This document shows, piece after piece, positions 2,994 through 28,967 of a stretch of DNA of 33,525 nt. The notes under the pieces were generated by a model. That model was not told the DNA's origin. It made no database searches and worked only from the letters and a program-made list of their open reading frames with translations. The stretch comes from a virus, in the IMG/VR virus record IMGVR_UViG_2756170196_000002, positions 1-33,525 of that record; one strand, given 5' to 3'. A program made the translations under genes and the position numbers. Within the stretch, counting starts at the first letter, position 1; each line of letters opens with the position of its first letter.

Positions 2994-4064
2994 TTAGCTG
3001 AAATCAGAAATCGCTTTGTTAGCCGTGTATCGGACGTAATCTGTGCGTTTTCGAGCCTTCTCTCGCTTCGCGATCGACGAACTCATAAAGATACGCTCGA
3101 TCCCACTCTGCTCGAGCTCGAAGTCGAACATATCGGCCTCGATCCCCCACCAAGCGATCTTGGATAGGAGGCTTATGTCGCACCGACTCCTGTCTCGATC
3201 CCACTTTGCGGAGTTCCACGCCGACTCAGCATCGTTGTAGAGGAGCGCGAAGTCGTCAGAGTGCTTCACACCAGCATCGACTACCTCTTGCTCTCGATTA
3301 GTGAGATCGTCGTAAGTGAGACGGCCTGGTACTCCTGAAGCGTCAGTCCCAGTCCACTCTGCGTCCACCTCTCCACTATCATCGGTGGTTTCCACGGGAG
3401 AGTTGGTATCGGACTCGTCCATGTACGTCGCCTGCCAGGCAGCGATGATTCCGTCCGGAGCCTGGTTGATCTCCTTGGGGGTACCACGGATCCAGCGCCC
3501 GGTAACGGTGAAGAATCGATCTCTATCGTAGATCTCGAAGCCGAGATCATCGTTCTTGTTCTGGTAGTCGCCGTCGAGAGCGTCTTCATCGTAGCAGAGG
3601 CTGTGGGCCCCCGTTCCGGATGGAGACACCTCGGCGAAGCTCTTGATCGACGTGAGCACCGTGTGGGCCCACTCGTCCATCACACCATCCTCGTCGATCA
3701 CGTCGTCGAAGTCGAGGCCGACGACGTCGTTCTCCTCGAGGAGTTGGAAGCCGACACCGTCGAACCCGTCGTCTCCGTTGATCTGTTTCGACTTGTCGAC
3801 TGCATTCATCGCAGTCTCGAAATCGACGCCGTAATCAGGATTCGTGGGATCACAGTTCCATACCTTAGCAGGGTGCTCCGGATTCTTTGGAACCTTCTTC
3901 CATTTATCGTCCTCAGGTTTGTATTTAGCTCTATAACAGATCCAGTATTCCATTTCTTTCAGTTCATCTGGCACACAGAACTCCCCTTCCTCAATCATTC
4001 GTTCGTTGATAGCTTCCTGTTCCACTTCGACAGTAGATGCACTCGAGTTTTCGGTAACAGACAT
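2994..4064 (-). CDS. NrS-1-type primase-polymerase (AEP domain plus helix-bundle domain), no helicase
   Basis: Motifs YWICY..KWKKVP, GVGF..VGLDFD, FAEVSPSGTGAH, FEIYDRDRFFTVTG, and C-terminal DRSRCDISLLSKIAWW...IFMSS...R..Y...T..KA. Confidence 0.85.
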   Translation of the reverse strand: MSVTENSSASTVEVEQEAINERMIEEGEFCVPDELKEMEYWICYRAKYKPEDDKWKKVPKNPEHPAKVWNCDPTNPDYGVDFETAMNAVDKSKQINGDDGFDGVGFQLLEENDVVGLDFDDVIDEDGVMDEWAHTVLTSIKSFAEVSPSGTGAHSLCYDEDALDGDYQNKNDDLGFEIYDRDRFFTVTGRWIRGTPKEINQAPDGIIAAWQATYMDESDTNSPVETTDDSGEVDAEWTGTDASGVPGRLTYDDLTNREQEVVDAGVKHSDDFALLYNDAESAWNSAKWDRDRSRCDISLLSKIAWWGIEADMFDFELEQSGIERIFMSSSIAKREKARKRTDYVRYTANKAISDFS

Positions 4065-4454: not shown

Positions 4455-5204
4455 TCAATCTTCTTCGCGTTCATCAAAAACCTCAAGCGCCTTTATTCCA
4501 AGATCTTCGGAAATATCTCTGGCAAGACTCTTCGTTGACTGGTAGGTAGAATACGTAGATCCACCGTCAAGACGCATAGATTGGCTTTGTTCTGCCTCTT
4601 GTAGCGCCAACCATGCTTTGTCAAGGAACTCATCATCTGTTTTTTCGATAGCTTCAATATATTCGCTAAGGTTTTTCCAACAATACTCTTCTAAATTCTC
4701 TCTTAGATCGTCACGGTTTTCTGTTGTTATGAATGGGATATAGAAATACTTTACCCACTCATCTACAGTAAAAATACCACCTGATTCTTCATCACGTACT
4801 AACGAAAGAGTTGTCTCTTCTCCATTTCCATTAGCGTAATCTGTGCCTTCAAACACCTCTTCCACATAATATTTGTATATTGGCATAAACCGTTCAAGGC
4901 TATTCAATTTTGATTCCAGCATAGACATTCGGCCACCAATATGGGATTTTCCCCTGAACTTTTGATAGGCGTCAAGTTCTCTATAGACATCTTTGAACAT
5001 CCCACTCAATGGATCATATGGTAACTCTCCATGAGTGCCGATCCTATGCGTTTCATCAAAGATTGGCCGGAGAACTGTGTCTCTTGTATCTCGCCATTGG
5101 GCATACTTATGCTGGAGTGATGCTCCAATAACAGAACCAGCAATTGCTGAGGTTCCTGCAACAACAGCACTCATTGGGATATTCGAGAGAAGTCCACCAA
5201 GCAT
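4455..5204 (-). CDS. AT-rich accessory membrane-anchored protein (moron-like)
   Basis: 249 aa, N-terminal hydrophobic helix (AVVAGTSAIAGSVIGASL), markedly lower GC; TATA-like TTATATGT on the minus strand about 50 nt upstream. Confidence 0.7.
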   Translation of the reverse strand: MLGGLLSNIPMSAVVAGTSAIAGSVIGASLQHKYAQWRDTRDTVLRPIFDETHRIGTHGELPYDPLSGMFKDVYRELDAYQKFRGKSHIGGRMSMLESKLNSLERFMPIYKYYVEEVFEGTDYANGNGEETTLSLVRDEESGGIFTVDEWVKYFYIPFITTENRDDLRENLEEYCWKNLSEYIEAIEKTDDEFLDKAWLALQEAEQSQSMRLDGGSTYSTYQSTKSLARDISEDLGIKALEVFDEREED

Positions 5205-6281
5205 ATGATTGATTCTTCGTTAGAAATCTATGAGTCTACTGATTACATATAAGTTGTCTACCAAAATACACGATAGAGGGTGTGTGCCTTTCTTTTCATC
5301 AGTGTACATATCTGTACATCTAAAACAAACTATTAGACGTCCAATCTCGAGGGAGCGAGGCCTGCTCGAGGGGGATTAGACGGCCAAATATCGGCTCGAG
5401 AACGCATCCTGAGCCGGCGACGTCGACTCCGATGGAGAGCCCTCGGGGAGAAACAGAGCCGAATAGCCACCGAGCTGCAGCCTCGAGTGGGCTCAGAGTA
5501 TGTCGACGTAGTCGGCGATCGGCCTCGAGGCGTAGAGTGGGGATCGCTCTTGGGAGAAACAGGCAGATCTCCGCTCGAGGATCACAGTGGGGATCGAGAA
5601 GGCCATAGTCCGCTCTAAGGACGACGTTGTCGCTCCTGGGGGATCCGGCTGTGCTACTGCTTGAGTGGGCCCTCGTCTGCGCAAAGAGCGTCACGATCCC
5701 GTCCTGGCCAGCGTCGACGTCCACATCAACTCGAGTGCTCTCCTAAGGGATCGGGCGAGCTCAGACAGGAGTGGGGATCCAATCGGTACTTAGACGTCGA
5801 TCGATGTCCGCGCCTGCTGGCTGACAATGGAGAGACTAGCACTATCGCTGGTGGTATCTACAGTGGAACGATCTCCTGTCGCGTCCGTGAGTCGATGTCT
5901 CGATTGGATGGTGTACCCTGTGGGGGAGGACTCCTTAATGGTAGCTGTGGAGTGAGCCCCATGGGGAGAGACTGTAGTACTGCTGGGACTGTAATTGCTA
6001 CCAGAGTCACCAACACCCCGTGAGCCCTCGGCTCCGTACGAGCCCGCTCGTCGGGATATCTCGCAAACCGCGCTCGATAGGGCCCGACGAGCGAACTCGT
6101 GCGGGCCTCGCCCTCACAGTCCACCAGGCGTCGCGTCCGTCTGCTGGGGCAGACGAACGCTCCTCTACCGCAACAGGATAGGCCCCGCTGGAGGGGAGAG
6201 AGGGAGAAGTGGAGTGATTGACGTGATCCACCACAACGATCGTAACCTGAGTCCGCCAGAACTGTAATTGAGATTCAGCCC

Positions 6282-6716
6282 CTATACTGAAGTCCCGACA
6301 GTTTGCTCGAGCGGGGCACCTCTCCCAGTGGACTCGAGTTCCCACGGAAGGTTTTTGTAGTGCTCGAGTCCGATCCACTCCGATGGGTGGTTATTATCAG
6401 AAAGTGAAGAGGATTCAGACGAACTAAACAATCTGATAGTTCCCCGAAACTCGAGACTCGAAGCTGTTAACGAATACTGTTTACAACTATGGAGCCAGAA
6501 CAATCCTGCCCAGAGTGTGAAAGTGGTATCATGATTCCAAGTAGCGGTTGCAGTTACTGCCGATCGTGTGGCTATTCTCCCTGCAAGTAGCAGGCTCGGA
6601 TCCCACCTATAGTCACAGTCCATTCTGAGGGGGCTCACGTCGCTCGAGATCGATCGCACTCCCTTCCGAATGGTTTCCATCGTCGCAATATAGAAATCGC
6701 TCAGATCGTCTCCCAT
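6282..6716 (-). CDS. Possible short gene or remnant (uncertain)
   Basis: ATG at 6716 with an AATTAA box about 25-32 nt upstream and some CTC-GAG (LE) codon pairs, but the product is not acidic. Confidence 0.2.
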   Translation of the reverse strand: MGDDLSDFYIATMETIRKGVRSISSDVSPLRMDCDYRWDPSLLLAGRIATRSAVTATATWNHDTTFTLWAGLFWLHSCKQYSLTASSLEFRGTIRLFSSSESSSLSDNNHPSEWIGLEHYKNLPWELESTGRGAPLEQTVGTSV

Positions 6717-6890
6717 AGCTTCTGAGTGGAATTGCACTGAAGTTAATTCTACTACGTTGCTAAATCGACGCCGACGCCCACTTGTCTGAAAGCTCTCAGT
6801 GGCCTCATAAGAGATTCCTCGAGTCCGGAATGTGGTTGCCTTTCAGCGCCCCACGGATCGCACTGAGTCGACTGTGAGCACGCTCAGATT

Positions 6891-7739
6891 GGATCCCAGC
6901 GGGCATCGATAGAGCCGATCCCCGGCCTGGCTCGAGCAGGAGGGGTGTCCACTCTCCTGAGCAACCCCCGGGGGCCACTACGTTCTGTTACAATACAACA
7001 GTAGTACTATTAGTATTGTATTGGGGGTTGTCACAGTGTAGGTGTAGTTGTTGATAGTGGATAGCTGTAGTGTAGGATACTACTGCTGTTTCGTTCAAAC
7101 GTACTACGATCCGTTCTATACTACAGCGACAGCTACCGCTACGGAGAGCACTGCATCAAAGATACAGTGGCTCTCCTCACCGCAACATAAGGAGTGGCCC
7201 CTGTTGAAGAGGGAACAACACCAGCAACGGAACGCTGTACTCTCCAAGGGGAAGGCAGTGGGCCTGGTGTCAGCTCCGCCTCGAGGGCTGCACTGATCCG
7301 CCTCAAGCGTCGACGTCGTCGTCGGCCTGGACTGCGAGCTCGCTCCGTCCCGATCTCCGAGATCTCCAGCCAGAACGGAGTCCAGTCGTTAACGAATACT
7401 GGTTACGCACTTCCGTCAACAGATACTGATTACACCCCTCGAGTAGCCTCCTACCAGATTCATTTAGTGCTAAGCAATGTGGTAGTTTCGCCTCTACTGG
7501 TGGCTCTTGTCAGAAAGGAGAGGACTACCTCCTCGAGTGTGAGCTGTGCATCCCCCTCCCCCTCGAGCCGGCGTCCCCTGTCCAATGCTACAGGATCACC
7601 ATCATCTCTTATCATCAACTGTGGAAACTGCTGTCGCCGTCTCTCTACCCTCGAACCCTGGCCCTACTCCGCTCGAAGGGGGATCCACTCCGCTACAACC
7701 AGGCCGGGGATCGAGCCCGCTATAGCCAGCCTGGGATCC
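6891..7739. repeat. Bipartite inverted repeat with arms 6891-6930 and 7699-7739
   Basis: GATCCCCGGCCTGG (6917-6930) pairs exactly with 7699-7712; GGATCCCAG (6891-6899) pairs with 7731-7739; internal spacers 17 and 18 nt. Confidence 0.8.
6961..7145. other. Candidate replication origin or structured element
   Basis: CCCCCGGGGG palindrome (6965-6974), nested inverted repeats CAACCCCC/GGGGGTTG and TACAATAC/GTATTGTA, AT-rich core, GTAG cluster switching to CTAC cluster at about 7077. Function is inferred. Confidence 0.35.
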
Positions 7740-8176
7740 AGTCGCCCTCGAGCCGGCGCCCTGGGATCTAACAGTGCGACGACGTCCGACAGTACTGTGA
7801 GCTCGCGACGCCGTCGACGTCCTCCGAGGAGTGGCTATTTTATTCATCTTCTAACTGTCCGATACTTTTCTTACATACCAACCTGTGGGAACTGCTGTCG
7901 CTGTCTGTTACGATCAGAGTGCATTCCCTCCGCTCGAAGTCCTGGCCCTCGTACGCTCGCAGCTCGAGGAGATCTCCAGTGCACCCATTCGATCGAATTA
8001 TTGCTCGCTCTTTCTCGAGCGTCGACGATGTCGCGATCTATCGCGCTCGAGTTCGCTGTCAACTGAGCGCGCTCACTGTCGACGTCGATGTTGTTCACTC
8101 GATTGGTTGACGACATCGCCCTCGAGCTCGATCCGATTTTGGGCAGAATCTTTCGCTCTCGCCCTCTTTCGATGCC

Positions 8177-8215
8177 CGCTCTGCAGTGGTGCTGAAATAT
8201 GGATGGGGGTTTTCT
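8177..8215. repeat. Boundary direct repeat, copy 1
   Basis: CGCTCTGCAGTGGTGCTGAAATATGGATGGGGGTTTTCT; near-identical to 9227-9264. Confidence 0.9.
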
Positions 8216-8243
8216 AATTTGGTGGTTACTATGGGCCCAGAAG

Positions 8244-9104
8244 TCAGGAGTGATACTCTTTAGATATCCCTTCTATTGATTCCTCACACTTCTCGTAGAT
8301 ATTTGGATTGTATCTTTTAACTTGCTCCGCAAAAGTAATGTACCCTGCTTTTTCACTAGCCTCTGAAGTATCTAAACCTGATTGCCTCAACTCTATGGCC
8401 TCCTTTCTGTCCCTGTATTTCTCGCGGAAATCAGTGCCCCCACTACTGAACATTCGACAACGTTCCATATCATAATACTCCTCGCTTAAACATTCTGTAG
8501 CTTTCAATATTTTTGGATCTCTCTTTACCTTTCCGAGCGGGAGGCATACTTCTACGGAGACTGTATTAGTGAATTCTATATTATAAAGTGATGGCACTTC
8601 CAAGTCAACTAACTTATTGTTCACTACAGAAGCATACATTTCCGCATTATCAGCTATATGGTTGAAATTATGATTAGTTGGTGTGAAGAGGAGTTGGAAT
8701 TCTACTTTCCCTGGTATATTGAAGTCAGTTCCTTCATAAAAATACCGCCTCATTTTGTTAAACTGGCGTATAATCTCATTTGCACCTGTTGACTCCTTTA
8801 CCGCCTGTTCAGATTTCACTTCTGTCACTATTCCTTTCATCGGATACGGCCAGGCTTCTATCGGTTCTGGATCTACCTTATGTTCCCAGACATTATCCTC
8901 ATACTCGTATAATTGGTAGAGATCTACTATTCCTCGTGTTCCATAATGGTTATAATGATACTCTGGATAGACAGAATATTCCACATTAGATTTGAACTCT
9001 TCAGGATATATGTCCTCTACTGGATATCTATTTTCCAATCCATCTGTCTCTTCTCTCCCAGACTTGATCAAATGGTTTGTAATATCATCTTCCGTGATAC
9101 TCAT
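8244..9104 (-). CDS. AT-rich PD-(D/E)xK-superfamily nuclease-like protein
   Basis: EYHYNHYGTRGIVDL...VTEVKSE...GANEIIRQF..M.RYFY matches the E...D...E-x-K...Q pattern of a haloarchaeal hypothetical family; strongly AT-rich. Confidence 0.75.
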   Translation of the reverse strand: MSITEDDITNHLIKSGREETDGLENRYPVEDIYPEEFKSNVEYSVYPEYHYNHYGTRGIVDLYQLYEYEDNVWEHKVDPEPIEAWPYPMKGIVTEVKSEQAVKESTGANEIIRQFNKMRRYFYEGTDFNIPGKVEFQLLFTPTNHNFNHIADNAEMYASVVNNKLVDLEVPSLYNIEFTNTVSVEVCLPLGKVKRDPKILKATECLSEEYYDMERCRMFSSGGTDFREKYRDRKEAIELRQSGLDTSEASEKAGYITFAEQVKRYNPNIYEKCEESIEGISKEYHS

Positions 9105-9226
9105 ACGACTTCATGTAAGTGGTTCATAACAGAAATGTTTTGCCCAATTATCTAACAAGTGGTGGCATCTTATCTGAATAGAATCTCGTTGGGGAGAATA
9201 TTCCCAAGAAGGGTAATCTCGATATT

Positions 9227-9264
9227 CGCTCTGCAGTGGTGCTAGAATATGGAAGGGGTTTTCT
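9227..9264. repeat. Boundary direct repeat, copy 2
   Basis: CGCTCTGCAGTGGTGCTAGAATATGGAAGGGGTTTTCT, directly after the stop codon of the HTH gene. Confidence 0.9.
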
Positions 9265-9265
9265 C

Positions 9266-9835
9266 CTACAGCTCAACCTCGATGTCGAACGTGTGTCTTG
9301 GTGCGTGTGGACTGTTAGGATCATCTTCCTCCTCCACCAGGTGGCTGTGAAGATAGAGATCAATCTCGAGCCCGTAGCAGTTGAGCTCGTCCGTGAGAAG
9401 GGTGGCCACTTCCTCCTCGAGTCGAGCCATATTTCGATCGAACTGATCGTAGTCGGGATCTCCATTCCGATCCTTCGGTACTGGATTGATATCATCGTAC
9501 CCAGAGACGCCTGCTCGCTCTTCGAGAGTGTACGTCTCGTCGATTCTGATAGTAATACGGCCGTCCCAGGTTCGATTTTCGATCACTTGTGGTGCTGCAT
9601 ACTCGGAGATCACGTCTTCGAGAATATCGAGGATAACTTTCGCATTGGATATATTCGTAAATTTCCCCCGAGCGGAACTCACGTTCTCAGAGACAGCTTG
9701 CTGGCTTACTCCCCGACGATCTCCCCAGTTCTGTTGCGACTCACCGTACCATTGGACTGCGACGTAGTCGACAGCTTCGGCTGGAGTTAGATCGGTTTCT
9801 TCGACGAGTGTCAGCACGAGTTTGTCTTCCATCAT
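9266..9835 (-). CDS. HTH transcriptional regulator (sigma70 region 4-like HTH) with acidic C-terminal domain
   Basis: LTPAEAVDY...SQQNWGDRRGVSQQAVSENVSSA helix-turn-helix; divergent from the late operon. Confidence 0.75.
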   Translation of the reverse strand: MMEDKLVLTLVEETDLTPAEAVDYVAVQWYGESQQNWGDRRGVSQQAVSENVSSARGKFTNISNAKVILDILEDVISEYAAPQVIENRTWDGRITIRIDETYTLEERAGVSGYDDINPVPKDRNGDPDYDQFDRNMARLEEEVATLLTDELNCYGLEIDLYLHSHLVEEEDDPNSPHAPRHTFDIEVEL

Positions 9836-9870
9836 TACAAGCTATGCTTGTACTCCCCTAGTTAAATATC
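9836..9870 (-). promoter_or_regulatory. Leaderless promoter of the HTH gene with a 7-3-7 palindromic operator
   Basis: TTTAA on the minus strand at 9862-9866 (about -27 to -31); TACAAGC-TAT-GCTTGTA (9836-9852) lies between the TATA box and the ATG. Confidence 0.6.
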
Positions 9871-10022
9871 TGTTGGGAACCGCATGGGTGGTTTCCGTTG
9901 GATGGATATCTTTCTCTACCAATTGACAAAGTCTACCCCGAAAAGAACCAGTTTGATAGGACTATGATCCAAGATTCAAACAGAATCGGCAGTAGGCGTC
10001 GGGACAGTTAGAATCGAAAGGG

Positions 10023-10063
10023 AGTACGATAGCCTCGTATAATTAATTATATCGACTCGTACT
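10023..10063. promoter_or_regulatory. Palindromic TATA-like element
   Basis: Perfect 14-bp palindrome TATAATTAATTATA (10038-10051) flanked by AGTACGA/TCGTACT inverted arms. Confidence 0.5.
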
Positions 10064-10270
10064 ACGCAACCTGTTCTCTCAAATCCAGTGCCCTCTGTTT
10101 CGATCGGGTAGATATCAGTCTATCAATAACTCTTTCTCCCGTGCCAACTCAACGTCGTAGTGGATCATGGCGCCGATCGTCCTCAAGGCCGTGCGCTTCT
10201 GTTCGAACAACCACCGTCGCTGCGGGAGCGGTGCCCCCTTACTCTGGCCCCTATCCTTCTGCGGTTCCGA

Positions 10271-10308
10271 GAGGCAACTTCTGAATCTCCGATTCAGGAG
10301 TCTGCCTC
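10271..10308. other. Long hairpin in a non-coding region
   Basis: GAGGCA-ACTTCTGAATC-TCC-GATTCAGGAGT-C-TGCCTC: 17 pairs including one G-U, with a 1-nt bulge. Confidence 0.6.
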
Positions 10309-10877
10309 GACGAGGGAGCGGAGATATCTTCGATATCTGCGCGCCCGTTGTGCTGTTCCTGTTCTTCTATAAACGGAATATCCCTTCATTCAAAACGAAC
10401 ACGTAGTTACGTCCCATTAGAATATTTTTCTTCCAGTAAAAGTGCGACAGTACGAAGGGAAAGGAAAAATGGAGACTGGAGAGTGCGCCCTGACGTCCCT
10501 ACACCAATGGATCGACGTCGAGAAGAAAGCAGACGTCGGATCCAAAGACGGGCTGTCGAGCCCGACGTGTTCCTCCTGGGCCAGTACTTCATTCCTGGCG
10601 CCCCAACACGGCTTCGGGAAACCTTGTACCCTCGAGAATGCAGTAGGATACGTGGTTTACGCGAATACGGCGCGGGCTTACTTTACTGCGACAGTGCGAC
10701 GTTGCGACGTAGGAGATGGGAGTGGTGAAGGGTGATGTCGATCACCGATCCCGAGTGCAACTGAGTCTAGGGCTTCGACTAATATAAGTGTTCTGCATAG
10801 ATGAAATACGGCTTAACTTGAGTGAAAGATTTGTAATCTCAACACCACCGAAGTGTAAGGTGACTGTAACCCCTAAT

Positions 10878-12590: not shown

Positions 12591-14120
12591 ATGGATTCGG
12601 AACAGGAACACCCCCTTCAGCCCTACGTATCTGGGAAAGATCGGTACGTAAACTTCGCCCAGGACGTCCTTGGAGTCAATCTTGCCGAGGTTCAACAGCG
12701 AATTCTCCGGGCTGTCACCCAGAACAAGCACCTCATCATCGTCTCAGGCAACGGTGTTGGGAAGTCGTTCGCTGTTTCTGTTCTGAATCTCGCGTTCCTC
12801 TACACGAATCCGAACTCGACTGTCCTGATGACGTCTGGCTCGTATAGCCAGATGACTGAGGCGACGTTCAAACCGATGACGTCGCTGCTGAAGCAGGCTC
12901 GGAACAACGGAGTTCCGCTCGAGGGCCAGACGAAGAAGTCGCCACCGAGAATCGAATTCGAAAACGATCCCGAGCACTACTTCCGCTGTGTCTCCGGACG
13001 ATATCCGGACAACCTCGAGGGCCGTCACAACGAACGTGTCCTCGTTGTCGTCGACGAGGCCGACAAGCCGGACATCTCGATGGAGCACTTCGACTCCGCC
13101 CAGTCCTCGATCACTGACGACAAGGATCGGATGGTTGTGATCGGGAATCCACCTCGAGACGAGGGTAATTCCCTGTACGAACTGATGACGGATCCACGCT
13201 GGGAAGTCATCCAGTTCTCCTCGTTCGACTCTCACAACGTCCAGGTGGACGCTGAGATCGTCGAGGGGGAGAAGCTTCCTGGCCTCGTCGATCTCCAGCA
13301 GATTCGTGAGGACTGGAGATCTTGGAACCGGAGCAATTTCCCTGGCGTCGAGGACTGCCTCGAGATGCTCGAGGAGGATGACGAAACAGGAATCCTCACG
13401 GCCTCGGATTCCGGGCTCGATGAGCGATTCTATCGTCGTCGACTCGGCGTCATCCCTCCAGATGGATCGAAGTCCGTACGTCCGTTCTACACAGAGGACG
13501 TCACATCGGCTGAGAACGCCTGGCAGTCGATCGAAGACGAAGAGGTAGTGTACGACGCATACGGCGTCGACGTCGCTCGAGGAGGCGGTGATCGGACTGT
13601 AATCGTCGGGATTACTCCCGAACGTGTCGACGTGCTCGCGAACGTCGAGAGTCCAGGCGATCACTCTGTCAACAAGCGACTCGTCGAGCGTCACGTCCAT
13701 GACGAGACTACGCCTGTAATCATGGACGCGATTGGTGAGGGTTCCGGACTCGCAGACGAGCTCAATCGGACGTACAACGTCACTCGATTCAAGTCCAGTG
13801 AGAACGCTCGGCAGAAAACCAAGTACAATGACTGTCGTACTGAGGCGCTCTGTGAGTTCGGAAAGTGGCTCGAGAACGGCTCCGTCGAACCGCAGAGTGA
13901 TCTCACTACGGAACTCCGTGCAGCGTCGCGACACATCGAGCTCACTGAGAAGGAACTGAAGTCCGGGACGACGTGGAAGGCGACGTCGAAGTCGAATCTC
14001 AAGCAGAGCGATTCTCTCGGACGGAGTCCTGATCTTCTCGACGCTGCGACTCTCGCAGCGTGGGGACTGAACGTCGAACAGGCTACCTCGAACGCCGGCT
14101 ACGGATTTTACTCGTACTGA
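12591..14120 (+). CDS. terL: Terminase large subunit
   Basis: Walker A SGNGVGKS, Walker B VVVDEA, coupling motif IGNP, RNase H nuclease motifs GVDVARGGGD, MDAIGEG, RSPDLLDA. Confidence 0.95.
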   Translation: MDSEQEHPLQPYVSGKDRYVNFAQDVLGVNLAEVQQRILRAVTQNKHLIIVSGNGVGKSFAVSVLNLAFLYTNPNSTVLMTSGSYSQMTEATFKPMTSLLKQARNNGVPLEGQTKKSPPRIEFENDPEHYFRCVSGRYPDNLEGRHNERVLVVVDEADKPDISMEHFDSAQSSITDDKDRMVVIGNPPRDEGNSLYELMTDPRWEVIQFSSFDSHNVQVDAEIVEGEKLPGLVDLQQIREDWRSWNRSNFPGVEDCLEMLEEDDETGILTASDSGLDERFYRRRLGVIPPDGSKSVRPFYTEDVTSAENAWQSIEDEEVVYDAYGVDVARGGGDRTVIVGITPERVDVLANVESPGDHSVNKRLVERHVHDETTPVIMDAIGEGSGLADELNRTYNVTRFKSSENARQKTKYNDCRTEALCEFGKWLENGSVEPQSDLTTELRAASRHIELTEKELKSGTTWKATSKSNLKQSDSLGRSPDLLDAATLAAWGLNVEQATSNAGYGFYSY

Positions 14121-14148: not shown

Positions 14149-15666
14149 ATGAGTTTTCGAGAACGAATTACGAACGGTACGAAGAATTTTACCGAATCTA
14201 TCCTCGGCTACGGGGATCCAGACGTCCAGACGGAGAACCGTCGAGGAGACTATGCACTCTACTCGTACGGTGACGATGTCGGAAAGGTACGCCCCAACAA
14301 GGGAGATCTCGAACACTACTGGGATCAGTACCTCACAAGTCCACTAATCCGGGTTCCAATCCGGATGTATGCGGAAGACATCACGGAACCTGGGTATCGC
14401 GTCGATGCTGACGATGATGAGCTCGAAGCCGAACTCGAGAAGTGGCTCTCCCAGTCTGCAATCATCGCTGGTGAGAGTCACCGGGACTTCTCCGAAATTC
14501 TCGAGGGTGCGATCATCCAGAAGGAAGTCCGGGGAACTGCCCTCGCTGAAGTTGTCCCGAAGAGGGACGATCCGAATGGTATCTGGGGCTTCCGTCTGAT
14601 CAACGTCTCGACTGTCAACGCCTACACCTACGAGGATAAGGCTGTACTTGTTCGTCCTGAAGACACTGAACTAGACGGTGTCCAGCTGAACCAGCGTGGT
14701 GAGGCAGCTGCATACGGACAGTGGGACGACGGTGCGATCTCGGGCCCGTTCCCTGACAGGACTACGGTTCCCCTTTCACAGAACGATCTAGTCAAGATCG
14801 TCCAGGATCCGGACACGAGCGACATCTTCGGCTCCTCGACGATCGCTCCTGTCTCGAAGGAGATCGACGATCTCTATCGAATGCTCGACGATCTCGGTGA
14901 GGCAGTCCACATGAAGGGCTATCCGCACTGGATTTTCAAACTCGGAGAGCCCAACGGGGATGTTAGCCAACCTCGAGCCGGAATCTGGCCCGAGGAGGAG
15001 ATGAAGAACTACCGAGACTCCCATAAAGAAGGAGATTGGGAAGTCGGGCAGAAGGACTTCGTCCCTGGTGACGTAGAGGTTGAAACGATCTCGAGCGACG
15101 TTCCCGAAGTTCAGGAGGTGCTCGACTGGTACGTCGAAGAGATCGTCAGTGCGATGCCGGTTCCGAAGTACAAGGTTGGGTTCGCTGGCGAGATCAATCG
15201 CGACATCACTTCCGAACAGTCTCCCCAGTACGAGCGGAAGATCGAGAAGGAGCGCCGTCGACTCGAGAACGTCTTCGAGCCCGTCCTCGAGCGGAAAGCG
15301 AAGGAACTCGGGTACGGTGAGAACGCTGTCGATAGCATCCGACTCCGGATTGAGGAACCACACGAGCAGAACCCACTCCAACGCGACGACTTCGCCGTCG
15401 ACGATTTCTCGAAGTTCGCACAGGGACTCAACCGTGCGTCCGGAGGATCGCCTCAGGAGATCGTGAGTCCGGATGAGGTTCGAGATATGCTCGGCCTCCC
15501 ATCTCGAGACGAAGCCGATCAGTTCGACGGAGACGAACTTGACGAGGAAACTGAGGAGTCCCTCGACGCCTACTTCGAGGAGTTGTACGACGAGCCCGCT
15601 GTCCCAGACTCGATTGAGACTGAGGACGGAGGTGAGCTCGAGGAAGACGAAGAATCTAACGAATAA
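14149..15666 (+). CDS. Portal protein
   Basis: Follows terL; 505 aa; GTALAEVV, FGSSTI.PV..EID, I.SAMPVP motifs; acidic C-terminal tail. Confidence 0.88.
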   Translation: MSFRERITNGTKNFTESILGYGDPDVQTENRRGDYALYSYGDDVGKVRPNKGDLEHYWDQYLTSPLIRVPIRMYAEDITEPGYRVDADDDELEAELEKWLSQSAIIAGESHRDFSEILEGAIIQKEVRGTALAEVVPKRDDPNGIWGFRLINVSTVNAYTYEDKAVLVRPEDTELDGVQLNQRGEAAAYGQWDDGAISGPFPDRTTVPLSQNDLVKIVQDPDTSDIFGSSTIAPVSKEIDDLYRMLDDLGEAVHMKGYPHWIFKLGEPNGDVSQPRAGIWPEEEMKNYRDSHKEGDWEVGQKDFVPGDVEVETISSDVPEVQEVLDWYVEEIVSAMPVPKYKVGFAGEINRDITSEQSPQYERKIEKERRRLENVFEPVLERKAKELGYGENAVDSIRLRIEEPHEQNPLQRDDFAVDDFSKFAQGLNRASGGSPQEIVSPDEVRDMLGLPSRDEADQFDGDELDEETEESLDAYFEELYDEPAVPDSIETEDGGELEEDEESNE

Positions 15667-15673
15667 GATACAT

Positions 15674-16822
15674 ATGTATAATAACTACTTTACCAATCAT
15701 GGAAGTGGGGGAGAGGTTCGAGTATATGATAATACTGGAACATATGTAGACTCATACGGTTACTCAAATTTTGGACAGTATGGGGCAGAATTCACTGTAC
15801 AAGATGACTCTAACGGATTTTATACAATCTATTATAATGGAGAGGATAAACTAGCAAAACACGATAAATCAAACTCGTTATCTAACGTCTGGGAAGTTAG
15901 TACTGGTGTTAATCCTAAAAGTCTATATCTTGGTGGAAATGGAGAATATTTACTCATATCCGGACACGACAATGATCTTATAGCCAAATCTGCAAGTGAT
16001 GGATCTGAGTTATGGTACACTACTCTTGGATATACAGAAACTGATATTACAATATCAAGCACTGGCGATATTATAGCCACTGATGGCAGCGATATTTATG
16101 AGTATGATAGTAGCGATGGATCAGAGATAAAATCAATAAGTCCAGATCAGGGTATAACTGCTATCACCCGAGACGATGATGATAATTATGTCATTGGAAC
16201 ATCTGGAATTGGTATTGCTAAAATAGATAGATCAGATGGATCTACTATCTGGGAAATTTCCCCCAACTATGGTAGTCTAGATTCACTGTATAGGGACGAT
16301 ACTGGAAGATACTATGGTTATACAGAAAACGCAGACATTGGTGTTGTTGACGACACTGGATCTAAACTTTGGTGGGAGCAGTACGACTATAACGACGATC
16401 CAGGAGGGCCACTGAAACCGTTAAGAACATCTAGTGGTGACTATAAGGCAGTATATTATAACTCAAATTACGGGGATACAATTTATGTAGATCCAGAAAC
16501 TGGGGGTGAAGATACAAGAATATCAGGAACTGCTAATTGGGATGATTATACGACACATCCAAACTATACGGCTCAACCCGATTCATGGATAAAAACTACT
16601 AATTTCTCCGGTACAGTGAAGTTAGATGGATCGGGTGTCGAGGGAGCAGAGATTATCCTAATTGAAGATGAGACTGATGAAGTCCTTACTCGAGTATCGA
16701 GTAACCCTGATGGAACCTGGAGTGCTGAGGTGAAAGATACGACAATCCACGCAGTAGCCCAGTACAAAGACAGTAATGGGAATATCTACAACTCCGAGAG
16801 CTACCCGTACGTCAATGAGTAG
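15674..16822 (+). CDS. AT-rich PQQ/BamB-like beta-propeller protein with C-terminal carboxypeptidase-regulatory/transthyretin-like domain (putative adhesin)
   Basis: ATG at 15674; repeats of the type D.SDGS..W...; C-terminal FSGTVKLDGSGVEGAEI.L......V.S..DGTWS. Confidence 0.75.
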   Translation: MYNNYFTNHGSGGEVRVYDNTGTYVDSYGYSNFGQYGAEFTVQDDSNGFYTIYYNGEDKLAKHDKSNSLSNVWEVSTGVNPKSLYLGGNGEYLLISGHDNDLIAKSASDGSELWYTTLGYTETDITISSTGDIIATDGSDIYEYDSSDGSEIKSISPDQGITAITRDDDDNYVIGTSGIGIAKIDRSDGSTIWEISPNYGSLDSLYRDDTGRYYGYTENADIGVVDDTGSKLWWEQYDYNDDPGGPLKPLRTSSGDYKAVYYNSNYGDTIYVDPETGGEDTRISGTANWDDYTTHPNYTAQPDSWIKTTNFSGTVKLDGSGVEGAEIILIEDETDEVLTRVSSNPDGTWSAEVKDTTIHAVAQYKDSNGNIYNSESYPYVNE

Positions 16823-26135: not shown

Positions 26136-28967
26136 ATGGCTTTCACTCCAAGTGGTGATCAGGAGCTAGCGATCGAGATCACTGCAGAGGATAATGCATC
26201 TGCTGCGTTCGCTAGTGCTGAGAGTTCCGCTCTCGACATGAAGACTGCAGTAGCGGGAGCTGGTGCTGTCCTCGCAGGGGCTGGTGTCGCTGGGCTGGCT
26301 GGCGCAGCGAGCGCTGCTGCTGATTTCGAGAGCGCGATGGTAGAGGTTGAGAAGGTAACGAACCCGGAGACAGCGGAGGAAATGTCCGGTTCGATCCGGG
26401 AAATGGCCGAGACGATCCCCCTCGCTCAGAAAGAGCTTGCAGGGATCGCAGCCGACGCTGGCCGGTTCGGTGTCGAAGGGCCTGAGAACATCGAGAAGTT
26501 CACTGAAGCGACGGCGAAGATGGCCACTGCGACTGATATGAACACCCAGGAGGCTGGGCAAGCATTCGCGAAGCTTGCCGAACTAACTGGGACGCCTATC
26601 TCCGAAGTCGAGAACCTCGGTTCTGCCATCAACGAACTCTCGAATAACACTGCAACGAGTGCCCAGGAGATCTCCGACTCGATGATGCGCTCCGCTGGTG
26701 CGCTCTCCCAGATGGGGATGACTCAGACGGAGATCGCTGGGATGTCCGCAGCTCTGAACGAAGTGAGTGAATCCTCCGAGCGTGCCGGGACTCGAATGCG
26801 TCGTCTCGGACAGGAGATGATGAATCCGAAGAAGACAGAGGAACTGGCCTCTGCGCTCGGAATGACGAAAGAGGAGTTCAAGACGATGCGAGAGGAGGCC
26901 CCCGACGAGCTCATGCTCCAGATGGCGGAAGCCATGAAGAAGGGTGGGGACGAAGCAGACGCCCTCAAAAACTCCCTCTCGACGACGTCGAGGCAGGCCC
27001 TTACTGGAATGGCCCAAAACATCGATGGGACTCGAGAAGCCCTCGAGATGTCCAGTACGGCCTACGAGGAGAACACCTCCGTCCAAAAGGAGTTCAACGC
27101 TGCCTCTGACACCTTCAACAAGAAGCTTCAGACGCTGAAAAACCGTCTGACGAACATTGGCATCGTGATGGGGAGTCAGATTCTCCCTGTCCTCATCACT
27201 GCGATGGAGCGGGTGTCCCCGTTGATCGACTCGTTCGCCGAGATGAACGAGAAGATGAACGGGATGCCCGCTCTGATCACCACCCTGGGGGTTGCGCTTA
27301 CTGGACTTGGAGCGATCGCTGTCTCGGTTGGCCCCGCTATCGTCGGTGCACTCTCCCCGATCCTCGCTCCTGTTGCAGCCATCACGGCTGCTGTTGGAGC
27401 GCTCTACTACGCCTGGACGAACGATATCGGTGGAATCCAAGGGAAGACACAGGAAGCCTGGGATACTCTCAAACCGATTCTCATCGGTATCAAGGACACT
27501 CTGATGCAGGTGTTCGAGCAGTATGCGCTCCCGATGCTCAAACGCCTGCGACAGGTATGGGAGAACCAGTTCCAGGCTATTGTTGAGGAAGTCATCGAGA
27601 CGTTAGAAGTGATCTCGAATCGGATCCAACCCGTTCTCAACTTCCTCGAGTCGTTCTGGCAGTCCCACGGCGACTCCGTGATGACGATCGTCCAGACGGT
27701 GTTCGATGCGATTGAGCTCATCGTCACGACGGTTATGCGGTTGATCTCTACGCAGATCCAGATTGTCCTCAACATCATCCAGGGTGACTTCGATGAAGCT
27801 CTCAAACTTTGTCTGGACTTCTGGAAGACGACGTTCAACGAGATACTCTCCTTCCTCACTGGATCCTTCACGAAGGGGCTCAAGGCCGGATTGAAAGCAA
27901 TCTTCGGCTTCATCAAACAGATATTCGTAGGAATCTACAACTTCCTGATTGGAAATTCGATCGTCCGTGATACCTTCAACGAGATCATCTCGTTCATCAA
28001 GGGAACCTTCTTCAAGAAGCTGAAGACGCTCTTCACGTCGATCTTCAACTTCTATAAGACGATCTGGACGAAGATCTTCAACTTCTACGTCAGCACCTGG
28101 CAGTCGATCTTCACGCAGACGAAGAAGTTCCTCACGAAGGCCTGGAACTTTATCCGATCCACTCTCAACAAAATCTTCACCTTCTACAAGACGATCTGGA
28201 ATAAGATATTCAACTTCTACGTGGGAATCTGGACATCGATCTACAACAAGACGTCGAAATGGCTCGGAAAGGCGAAAAGTACCCTCCAAAACACCCTCAA
28301 ATCGACTGCTCGGTGGGTGAAAACCACCGGAAAATCCCTCCTCACAGGCGGATTTGAGGCCGTAAAAGACGCTATTTTAGGGGTATTTGACACCCTGAAA
28401 ACGGAGGCATTCGACACCATCGTCTCCCTTGGACAGGAGGTTCTCGACGAAATTCGGGAGATTATCTCCGATCTACAGGAAACCTTCAACGATGCGATCC
28501 CGGACGAACTGAACGTCCCTGAGATCACTGTCGGTGGAGGTGAGATCGACATCCCATCGAAGTCGGTTGATAAGCCGGATTGGCTCGGTGGTGGTAGTGT
28601 TAGTGTCGGTGGCGGAGATATCAATATTCCGAGTGAAGATGTTGGTGGCCAGTCCCTGGATATGCCCCAGCTGGCCGACGGTGGTATCGTCGATAGTACG
28701 ACGATCGCGATGATCGGTGAGGCCGGACAGGAGGCCGTTGTTCCGCTCCAGAAGCTGAGCAACTATCTGGACACGGCGTACGAAGTTGGCCGTCAGACAG
28801 CAACTGAGCCGGCCTACAACGAAAGTACTGGTTCCAGTTCCTCTTCGATCACTGCTCGACTCAAGATCGAGGGTGACGGCCAGCTCGCAGAGATCATTCG
28901 CGAACATGCTGAGCTCGTCGTCGAGGAGAACGAGGCAGAAAAGAGCGCCCGAATCAGCCGACTGTAG
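26136..28967 (+). CDS. Tape measure protein (TP901 family core)
   Basis: AADFESAMVEVEKV TP901 motif, 11-residue aromatic repeats, C-terminal LADGGIV...IGEAGQEAVVPL. Confidence 0.93.
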   Translation: MAFTPSGDQELAIEITAEDNASAAFASAESSALDMKTAVAGAGAVLAGAGVAGLAGAASAAADFESAMVEVEKVTNPETAEEMSGSIREMAETIPLAQKELAGIAADAGRFGVEGPENIEKFTEATAKMATATDMNTQEAGQAFAKLAELTGTPISEVENLGSAINELSNNTATSAQEISDSMMRSAGALSQMGMTQTEIAGMSAALNEVSESSERAGTRMRRLGQEMMNPKKTEELASALGMTKEEFKTMREEAPDELMLQMAEAMKKGGDEADALKNSLSTTSRQALTGMAQNIDGTREALEMSSTAYEENTSVQKEFNAASDTFNKKLQTLKNRLTNIGIVMGSQILPVLITAMERVSPLIDSFAEMNEKMNGMPALITTLGVALTGLGAIAVSVGPAIVGALSPILAPVAAITAAVGALYYAWTNDIGGIQGKTQEAWDTLKPILIGIKDTLMQVFEQYALPMLKRLRQVWENQFQAIVEEVIETLEVISNRIQPVLNFLESFWQSHGDSVMTIVQTVFDAIELIVTTVMRLISTQIQIVLNIIQGDFDEALKLCLDFWKTTFNEILSFLTGSFTKGLKAGLKAIFGFIKQIFVGIYNFLIGNSIVRDTFNEIISFIKGTFFKKLKTLFTSIFNFYKTIWTKIFNFYVSTWQSIFTQTKKFLTKAWNFIRSTLNKIFTFYKTIWNKIFNFYVGIWTSIYNKTSKWLGKAKSTLQNTLKSTARWVKTTGKSLLTGGFEAVKDAILGVFDTLKTEAFDTIVSLGQEVLDEIREIISDLQETFNDAIPDELNVPEITVGGGEIDIPSKSVDKPDWLGGGSVSVGGGDINIPSEDVGGQSLDMPQLADGGIVDSTTIAMIGEAGQEAVVPLQKLSNYLDTAYEVGRQTATEPAYNESTGSSSSSITARLKIEGDGQLAEIIREHAELVVEENEAEKSARISRL

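What the first reader, a model, noticed from the sequence alone, without database searches (positions are those of the whole stretch)
8177..9264. Nuclease cassette bracketed by a ~39-bp direct repeat (cassette-capture boundary sequence)
An AT-rich 1-kb cassette encoding a PD-(D/E)xK-like protein is flanked exactly by two near-identical repeats, each just downstream of a minus-strand stop codon. One recombination between them would excise the cassette cleanly. This resembles boundary/linker sequences of lambdoid phage mosaicism or integron-like cassette capture. It suggests a defined slot for swapping accessory (possibly defence) genes; I do not know of this being described in haloarchaeal viruses.
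Basis: partly seen in the sequence, partly recalled or inferred. Interest (0 to 1): 0.7.

Follow-up and report, generated by a model that had tools for sequence, protein, structure and literature searches.

The report
Foreign nuclease gene flanked by repeats
A 1-kb AT-rich piece of foreign DNA carrying one nuclease gene sits in a salt-loving archaeon's integrated virus, bracketed by a real ~40-bp direct repeat that most likely marks how it was inserted, and nothing shows a reusable gene-swapping slot.

Summary
Window 8177-8215 and 9227-9264 are a 39-nt direct repeat (90% identical, one indel). It extends to 8169/9219 and, patchily, to 8139/9189. These are the only two copies in the 33.5-kb provirus. 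Their inner edges coincide within a few bases with GC change points at 8214 and 9226. The body between them (8216-9218) has GC 0.39 against about 0.52-0.55 around it.

The single ORF (8244-9104, minus strand, 286 aa) belongs to Pfam PDDEXK_18 (PF26437). It keeps the invariant D61/E95-x-K97 and models as a PD-(D/E)xK fold.

The "integron-like or boundary-sequence slot" reading is not supported. The repeat was found nowhere else: IMG/VR, JGI metagenome contigs, 152 Natrialbaceae genomes and 401 sampled Halobacteria genomes. It has no hairpin. No empty or alternative allele exists in the data. The one related provirus found (Natronosalvus hydrolyticus) is non-homologous across this region and carries a 40%-identical PDDEXK_18 gene at another position, in the opposite orientation.

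In some other loci PDDEXK_18 genes ride on small mobile elements bounded by repeats. My best reading is a one-off insertion scar (attL/attR-like or Campbell-type) of a moron-like nuclease gene. This is ordinary mobilome biology and of modest interest.

The parts
8139..8215 (.). Left copy of the direct repeat. Strict core 8177-8215, ungapped core from 8169, weaker extension block 8139-8155. It sits in GC-rich virus DNA.
8216..8243 (-). 28-nt AT-rich tail between the nuclease stop codon and the left repeat. Part of the foreign insert.
8244..9104 (-). 286-aa PDDEXK_18 (PF26437) family protein with a PD-(D/E)xK nuclease fold. Invariant E48, D61, E95-x-K97 and TGANEIIRQF are kept. Acidic, pI 4.8. 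It has three insertions relative to the ~200-aa homologs.
9105..9218 (-). 114-nt AT-rich upstream region of the nuclease gene (GC 0.39), part of the insert. TATA-like TTTCTGTTAT at 9126-9135 and BRE-like GCAAAAC at 9136-9142 lie 22-38 nt before the ATG. The promoter is inferred from sequence only.
   Evidence: reading of the sequence
9189..9264 (.). Right copy of the direct repeat. Strict core 9227-9264, ungapped core from 9219, weaker extension block 9189-9205, which lies in AT-rich insert DNA.
9266..9835 (-). Neighbouring virus gene: 189 aa, acidic, HTH-like N-terminus. First gene of the leftward unit. Only two homologs are known (53% and 38% identity).

Best explanation
A single horizontally acquired, moron-like gene unit has been inserted into the hypervariable left arm of a haloarchaeal tailed provirus. 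The unit comprises its own AT-rich upstream region, a PDDEXK_18 nuclease gene and a short tail. It lies immediately downstream of the 189-aa HTH-like gene. The two repeats are the duplicated junctions (attL/attR-like) left when a circular or repeat-bounded donor carrying a ~50-77-bp matching segment recombined once with the virus copy of that segment. The recombination was either Campbell-type homologous or site-specific, probably within the 17-bp identical block CGCTCTGCAGTGGTGCT. The repeats are a one-off insertion scar, not a standing cassette site, although recombination between them could delete the 1,050-bp unit precisely. Shown: the repeat, its exact fit to the compositional boundaries, the foreign composition, the nuclease family and fold, and the mobilome habit of that family. 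Inferred: the circular intermediate, the enzyme responsible, the promoter, and any function of the nuclease (superinfection exclusion or defence is only a guess).
For: The repeat is significant and unique. GC change points at 8214 and 9226 fall on its inner edges. The anatomy fits what a single crossover of a circle predicts: the extension block next to the left copy is GC-rich virus DNA, and its homolog next to the right copy is AT-rich insert DNA. Mismatches are clustered rather than scattered (2/13 identity at 8156-8168 beside a 17/17 block). That fits two diverged homologous sequences brought together, not a fresh target duplication that later decayed. Elsewhere the gene family travels with mobile elements bounded by repeats. 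L027 has nuclease plus tyrosine integrase alone between 29-bp tRNA-3'-end-like repeats (2.1 kb). L030 has the nuclease beside an integrase at the end of a 5-kb unit between 94-bp repeats. L025 is a 5.8-kb contig with identical 119-bp ends holding tRNA-Ser. L006 has the nuclease in a low-GC island that starts at an integrase. L007 has the nuclease between two 764-bp IS-fragment copies. The family gene usually has lower GC than its flanks. The related Natronosalvus provirus has a 40%-identical copy at another site and in the opposite orientation, so the gene moves independently of the virus backbone.
Against: No empty site, donor or circle was observed, so the insertion event is inferred from one genome. 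The 1,050-bp unit contains no integrase. The provirus integrase (1-1023) is 7 kb away, and the att candidate of its 81%-identical relative is a tRNA 3' end unrelated to the repeat. None of 28 other PDDEXK_18 loci tested has a short repeat hugging the gene, so this architecture is not a hallmark of the family. The block-wise conservation of the repeat could equally reflect a duplicated regulatory element.
Confidence: 0.55

Rival explanations
1. PeSL-like regulatory or boundary module. The repeat plus its extension is a promoter/leader or operator element placed ahead of successive leftward units. Homologous recombination between such modules shuffles genes in and out, as in T4-type phages and as proposed for halovirus HGTV-1.
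For: Conservation is block-wise with a variable spacer, like protein-binding or promoter elements. In gene sense each copy lies upstream of a unit. Precedents exist: PMC2839356 (PeSLs and mini-circles) and PMC3950731 (HGTV-1 motifs). Three weak 19/27 matches to the first 27 nt occur elsewhere in the window, which is borderline (about 3% of shuffled patterns give as many).
Against: Only two full copies exist in 33.5 kb, whereas PeSL-type motifs precede many ORFs. There is no stem-loop (fold z-scores -0.6 to +0.2; no terminator-like site). The nuclease has a better-placed TATA-like element 22-31 nt before its ATG, 90 nt downstream of the repeat. The DNA following the left copy has no convincing gene (ORFs with pI 11, Ser/Arg/Pro-rich).
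Confidence: 0.2
2. Free-standing homing-endonuclease-like selfish gene. The nuclease cuts cassette-less alleles of related viruses and is copied in by repair.
For: It is a single intact nuclease gene with conserved catalytic residues, inserted in an intergenic position of a virus with its own upstream region. PD-(D/E)xK homing enzymes are known (general knowledge).
Against: Homing does not create 40-77-bp flanking direct repeats. The family was not found in IMG/VR viral contigs or GenBank phages. It is mostly in cellular chromosomes and megaplasmids, in a few loci beside integrases or IS copies. No presence/absence polymorphism is available.
Confidence: 0.08
3. Dedicated cassette-capture slot (integron-like), served by the provirus tyrosine integrase and used repeatedly for different accessory genes.
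For: The direct repeats are of att-like size. A tyrosine integrase is present in the provirus and is 35-37% identical to the integrases that sit beside PDDEXK_18 genes in L027 and L030.
Against: There is no array, no third copy, and no other cargo anywhere searched. There is no attC-like fold. The repeat does not resemble the tRNA-type att candidate of the related provirus. Other low-GC islands in the same virus (4455-5204, 15473-16822) have no such flanks.
Confidence: 0.07
4. The repeat is unrelated to the insertion: chance similarity, or a local duplication that predates the gene's arrival.
For: There is only one instance, and no comparative data exist.
Against: The statistics argue against chance. 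So does the coincidence of both inner edges with the two GC change points within a few bases.
Confidence: 0.03

Closest known systems
Morons of tailed phages (extra transcription units inserted between backbone genes; Hendrix/Juhala concept, from general knowledge)
   Same: One accessory gene with its own upstream region and deviant base composition, inserted between backbone features of a temperate tailed virus.
   Different: Morons are not defined by flanking direct repeats. Here a 39-77-bp duplication marks both junctions. The promoter is only inferred and no terminator was found.
att-flanked integrative elements of haloarchaea and integrase-less derivatives mobilised in trans (CIME-like)
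   Same: Direct repeats of att-like length sit at both junctions. The same nuclease family sits in integrase-bearing units bounded by 29-119-bp repeats (L027, L030, L025).
   Different: There is no integrase inside the unit and no tRNA or gene 3' end as target. The repeat is unrelated to the tRNA-type att candidate of the related provirus. Mobility has not been observed.
PeSL mobile regulatory cassettes of T4-type phages (PMC2839356, PMC4122927) and PeSL-like motifs of halovirus HGTV-1 (PMC3950731)
   Same: A small accessory ORF is bracketed by direct repeats in a hyperplastic region, and recombination between the repeats could yield a mini-circle.
   Different: PeSLs are composite promoter plus stem-loop terminators present in many copies. 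Here there are two copies, no stem-loop and no demonstrated promoter.
Pfam PDDEXK_18 (PF26437) / PD-(D/E)xK nuclease superfamily; nearest solved folds are XisH (2okf), AF1548 (1y88) and NucS (2vld)
   Same: D...ExK motif on the second and third strands of an alpha-beta-beta-beta-alpha-beta core. All 86 homologs found are annotated PF26437.
   Different: No member has been characterised. This protein is 286 aa against about 200, owing to three insertions. The structural Z-scores (8.4-6.5) show the fold only, not the function.

Membership tests
PD-(D/E)xK nuclease superfamily, Pfam PDDEXK_18 (PF26437) | Sequence membership in the Pfam family | tested here: inconclusive
   The local Pfam copy lacks the model, so the protein and five homologs give no hit. 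However, all 86 homologs (E down to 2e-30, 46% identity) carry a precomputed PF26437 annotation. The ESM Atlas cluster matched by structure (TM 0.72 by row) is 100% PF26437 PDDEXK_18.
PD-(D/E)xK nuclease superfamily, Pfam PDDEXK_18 (PF26437) | Catalytic D ... (D/E)xK motif conserved | tested here: met
   D61, E95 and K97 are invariant in 25 sequences, together with E48 and TGANEIIRQF.
PD-(D/E)xK nuclease superfamily, Pfam PDDEXK_18 (PF26437) | Restriction-endonuclease-like alpha-beta-beta-beta-alpha-beta core fold | tested here: met
   The model has pLDDT 80 and pTM 0.81, with D61 on strand 2 and E95/K97 on strand 3. The top VIA-align rows are almost all PD-(D/E)xK nucleases: XisH Z 8.4, AF1548 7.3, NucS 7.0, Can2, BstEII, FokI. 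Foldseek hits are weak.
Integron gene cassette | attC site: imperfect palindrome folding into a bulged hairpin at the cassette end | tested here: not met
   Both strands of both copies fold no better than shuffles (z -0.55 to +0.17). No inverted repeat lies at the ends.
Integron gene cassette | Adjacent IntI-type integrase with attI, and usually an array of cassettes | tested here: not met
   The only integrase is a phage-type tyrosine recombinase 7 kb away. There are two repeat copies and one cargo gene.
PeSL-type mobile regulatory cassette | Composite promoter plus stem-loop terminator, repeated before many ORFs of a hyperplastic region | tested here: not met
   No stem-loop. Only two full copies in the window. 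Promoter activity cannot be tested with these tools.
Site-specific integrative element (att-flanked) | Direct repeats (attL/attR) at both junctions of foreign DNA | tested here: met
Site-specific integrative element (att-flanked) | Element-encoded integrase, or demonstrated use of one in trans | tested here: not met
   The 1,050-bp unit has one ORF, the nuclease. Action in trans is not testable here. The repeat is unrelated to the att candidate of the sister provirus.
Homing endonuclease gene (free-standing) | Presence/absence polymorphism among close relatives, with a cleavable target in empty alleles | not testable with these tools
   No relative shares the locus.
IS element / MITE | Terminal inverted repeats, short (2-15 bp) target duplication, transposase | tested here: not met
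   There are no terminal inverted repeats. The duplication is 39-77 bp and imperfect. There is no transposase.

The most novel reading that the evidence does not exclude
PDDEXK_18 nuclease genes are the core of a class of miniature mobile cassettes in haloarchaea. In this reading the nuclease itself, or a resident integrase acting in trans, promotes insertion and excision at short matching sequences, so that viruses and small integrative elements exchange these units as 1-2-kb circles. The weak structural resemblance to XisH, an excision-controlling factor, would then be meaningful.
Probability: 0.1. Interest if true: 0.65.

Novelty: new member of a known kind. Interest (0 to 1): 0.3.

Why it matters
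It gives a clean, base-resolved example of how an archaeal tailed virus picks up an accessory nuclease gene, with both junctions preserved. It also shows that the uncharacterised PDDEXK_18 family is a recurrent passenger of haloarchaeal mobile elements: small integrase units, IS-bounded segments, megaplasmids and two related proviruses. If the repeats still recombine, the locus would be a convenient natural test case for gain and loss of a moron in an archaeal virus. As it stands, it does not reveal a new recombination system.

Tried and rejected
- **tRNA or known RNA in the repeat:** none found (ARAGORN; Rfam at E<=1).
- **Hairpin, attC or terminator:** rejected.
- **IS or MITE:** no terminal inverted repeats.
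- **More copies of the repeat:**
  - The exact 17-mer search of IMG/VR gave two hits whose flanks do not match, so they are chance.
  - The degenerate 23-mer in JGI metagenome contigs gave no hits.
  - Searches allowing up to 3 mismatches in 152 Natrialbaceae genomes and 401 sampled Halobacteria genomes gave no hits.
- **Virus relatives that might show an empty site:** the 189-aa protein, primase, terL, P0088 and P0089 in IMG/VR all gave nothing. GenBank phages by DNA and by protein gave nothing. Plasmids gave only a domain-level hit.
- **Flanking repeats as a family hallmark:** rejected, 0 of 28 other loci. The long repeats found are IS copies in L007, and in L008 the repeat pair is joined across a scaffold gap.
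- **Similarity of the cassette's non-coding parts to the flanks of homologs:** none.
- **Repeat as a secondary att site of the virus integrase:** no similarity to the candidate att core of the sister provirus.
- **Sequence-level link of the family to solved structures or NCBIfam:** none.
- **Literature on PF26437:** none.

Full report
**What the window is.** The window is a 33.5-kb IMG/VR provirus record of a haloarchaeal tailed virus. It encodes a tyrosine integrase at 1-1023, a primase at 2994-4064, the large terminase at 12591-14120 and the portal at 14149-15666. Real genes here encode acidic proteins (pI 4.1-4.8), as expected for halophiles.

**The observation.** The sequence, the repeat finder, a self-BLAST of the whole window and a pairwise alignment agree. 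Positions 8177-8215 and 9227-9264 are a 39-nt direct repeat, 90% identical with one single-base indel. Ungapped similarity starts at 8169/9219.
- A 31-nt degenerate consensus hits only these two sites, and no shuffle reaches two hits.
- A test of the upstream flank against the downstream flank scores 24, against a null maximum of 10-13.
- On the same diagonal a further block, 8139-8155 / 9189-9205, matches 13/17, where 1,100 background positions never exceed 10/17.
- Homology therefore spans about 77 bp in blocks. A 17/17 block (CGCTCTGCAGTGGTGCT) lies beside a 13-nt stretch with only 2 matches.
- The body between the copies (8216-9218) has GC 0.39. The flanks have 0.50-0.55.
- The best GC change points are 8214 and 9226, at the inner edges of the repeats.
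- The right copy ends one base before the stop codon of the 189-aa ORF (9266-9835). The left copy ends 28 nt after the nuclease stop codon.

**The cargo.** ORF 8244-9104 (minus strand, 286 aa, P0001) has no hit in the local Pfam, PHROG, PADLOC or NCBIfam libraries.
- It has 86 homologs, with E down to 2e-30. All are annotated PF26437, which Pfam 38.1 names PDDEXK_18.
- In an alignment of 25 members, E48, D61, E95, K97 and the helix TGANEIIRQF are invariant.
- The start codon is right, because MSITED... matches the homolog N-termini.
- The AlphaFold model (pLDDT 80, pTM 0.81) has the alpha-beta-beta-beta-alpha-beta core, with D61 and E95/K97 on adjacent strands.
- An exhaustive structural search returns almost only PD-(D/E)xK nucleases: XisH Z 8.4, AF1548 7.3, NucS 7.0, then Can2, Card1, BstEII and FokI. 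Foldseek alone is weak.
- These Z values establish the fold and not the function. The gene looks intact and functional. Its protein is acidic, so it comes from a halophile despite a GC3 of 0.37.

**What the repeat is not.**
- It is not a tRNA or a known RNA.
- It is not a hairpin. All four folds are no better than shuffles, and no terminator-like site is found.
- The unit has no terminal inverted repeats and no transposase.
- No further copy exists. IMG/VR gave two chance 17-mer hits with unrelated flanks. JGI metagenome contigs gave none. The 152 Natrialbaceae genomes gave none at up to 3 mismatches. The 401 sampled Halobacteria genomes gave none.
- Weak 19/27 matches inside the window are borderline.
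- The repeat is therefore neither a common terminator nor a widespread cassette site.

**Relatives of the virus.** Single-protein searches of IMG/VR with the 189-aa protein, the primase, the terminase and the two known homologs of the 189-aa protein found nothing. GenBank phages also gave nothing.
- One related provirus turned up by accident. Locus L005 (Natronosalvus hydrolyticus AArc-curdl1) begins with an integrase 81% identical to the window's. A second contig of that genome carries a terminase about 80% identical and a portal 67% identical.
- Synteny holds for integrase, primase operon and late genes. Window 4455-10400 has no counterpart there. The 189-aa gene is absent.
- That provirus carries a PDDEXK_18 gene, 40% identical, directly after the primase operon and in the opposite orientation, without flanking repeats.
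- Its candidate att core is a 25-bp tRNA 3' end (GCAGTTCAAATCTG...), found beyond the integrase and again at the far end. It shows no similarity to the repeat.
- No empty or alternative allele of this site is therefore available. The nuclease gene evidently moves independently of the virus backbone within a hypervariable region.

**Habits of the gene family.** Nine genome loci and 38 metagenome loci were fetched.
- The gene usually has lower GC than its flanks.
- A short repeat hugging the gene is not a family trait: 0 of 28 loci tested.
- The family does keep mobile company:
  - L027 has the nuclease and a convergent tyrosine integrase alone between 29-bp repeats that look like a tRNA 3' end. 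No whole tRNA was called.
  - L030 has the nuclease 134 bp from an integrase, at the end of a 5-kb unit between 94-bp repeats.
  - L025 is a 5.8-kb contig with identical 119-bp ends that contain tRNA-Ser.
  - L006 has the nuclease in a low-GC island that begins at an integrase.
  - L007 has the nuclease between two 764-bp copies of an IS fragment (rve_3).
  - L008 has a low-GC insert between 78%-identical ~440-bp repeats, but these are joined across a scaffold gap.
- Eleven haloarchaeal megaplasmids carry members, including pHV4 of Haloferax volcanii.
- No family member was found in IMG/VR or in GenBank phages.
- The window's integrase is 35-37% identical to the L027 and L030 integrases.

**Most likely mechanism.** The arrangement is virus DNA + extension(GC-rich) + repeat | AT-rich body | extension(AT-rich) + repeat + virus gene. 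This is what one crossover produces between the virus and a circular DNA carrying body + extension + repeat. The clustered mismatches fit two diverged homologous segments brought together. They do not fit a fresh target duplication.
- The data cannot say whether a tyrosine recombinase or homologous recombination made the crossover.
- The unit has a TATA-like element 22-31 nt before its ATG (sequence reading only) and deviant composition. Functionally it is a moron.
- The DNA to the left of the left copy has only basic, Ser/Arg/Pro-rich ORFs. This agrees with an earlier first-reader note that 5205-8240 may be non-coding. The insert therefore sits between the last gene of a leftward unit and a gene-poor region, where insertions are tolerated.
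- I put this reading at 0.55.

**Rivals.**
- A PeSL-like regulatory or boundary module (0.2) has a precedent in T4-type phages (PMC2839356) and a proposal for HGTV-1 (PMC3950731). It would explain the block-wise conservation. It is weakened by the presence of only two copies and the absence of a stem-loop.
- A homing-type selfish nuclease (0.08) does not explain the duplication or the family's cellular, mobile-element-associated distribution.
- Chance is excluded for practical purposes.

**Verdict.** The feature is real and neatly preserved, and the explanation is ordinary: a foreign nuclease moron with its insertion junctions intact. It adds a mobilome context for an uncharacterised nuclease family. 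It does not add evidence for a new capture system. That prevented inspection of the only contig likely to show the empty site.

Noticed in passing
L064 (G001:C20:1-13500), L065/L066 (G001:C28): Natronosalvus hydrolyticus AArc-curdl1 carries a related provirus split over two contigs: integrase 81%, terminase about 80%, portal 67% amino-acid identity. The region between the primase operon and the late genes is unrelated to the window. A candidate 25-bp att core at a tRNA 3' end lies at C20:12638-12662 and C28:1628-1652.
   Followed up: partly
L027:99-2239: A 2.1-kb unit contains only a PDDEXK_18 gene (388-987) and a convergent tyrosine integrase (1025-2245). It is bracketed by 29-bp repeats resembling a tRNA 3' end, with a third partial copy at 2361-2384. 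It may be a minimal integrative element.
   Followed up: partly
L025:1-5956: A 5.8-kb metagenome contig has 100%-identical 119-bp ends that contain tRNA-Ser, and it carries a PDDEXK_18 gene. It is either a circular element or an element bounded by att copies. No integrase was detected with the queries used.
   Followed up: no
L007:4160-7121: In Saliphagus infecundisoli a 401-aa protein with an N-terminal PDDEXK_18 domain lies in a low-GC insert between two 764-bp, 97%-identical copies of an IS fragment (rve_3). Longer forms (367-386 aa open frames) also appear in L009, L011 and L054.
   Followed up: no
window 4455-5204 and 15473-16822: Two further low-GC islands (GC 0.41-0.42, GC3 0.33-0.37) each hold one acidic ORF without family hits. 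Neither has flanking direct repeats.
   Followed up: partly
window 5205-8168: All ORFs directly left of the cassette (for example 7871-8116, 7602-7847, 7194-8066) encode basic (pI about 11), Ser/Arg/Pro-rich products unlike the acidic real genes. The region has internal ~264-284-bp spaced repeats and a 27-nt tandem repeat at 7679-7740. It is probably non-coding.
   Followed up: partly
window 9266-9835: The 189-aa neighbour has an HTH-like N-terminal region (residues about 8-75) that recurs in proteins of varied length in nine Natrialbaceae genomes. Full-length homologs number only two among 5.8 billion proteins.
   Followed up: partly
window 28041-28242: A 70-nt near-tandem duplication (85% identical, 132-nt spacing) lies inside the tape-measure gene.
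   Followed up: no
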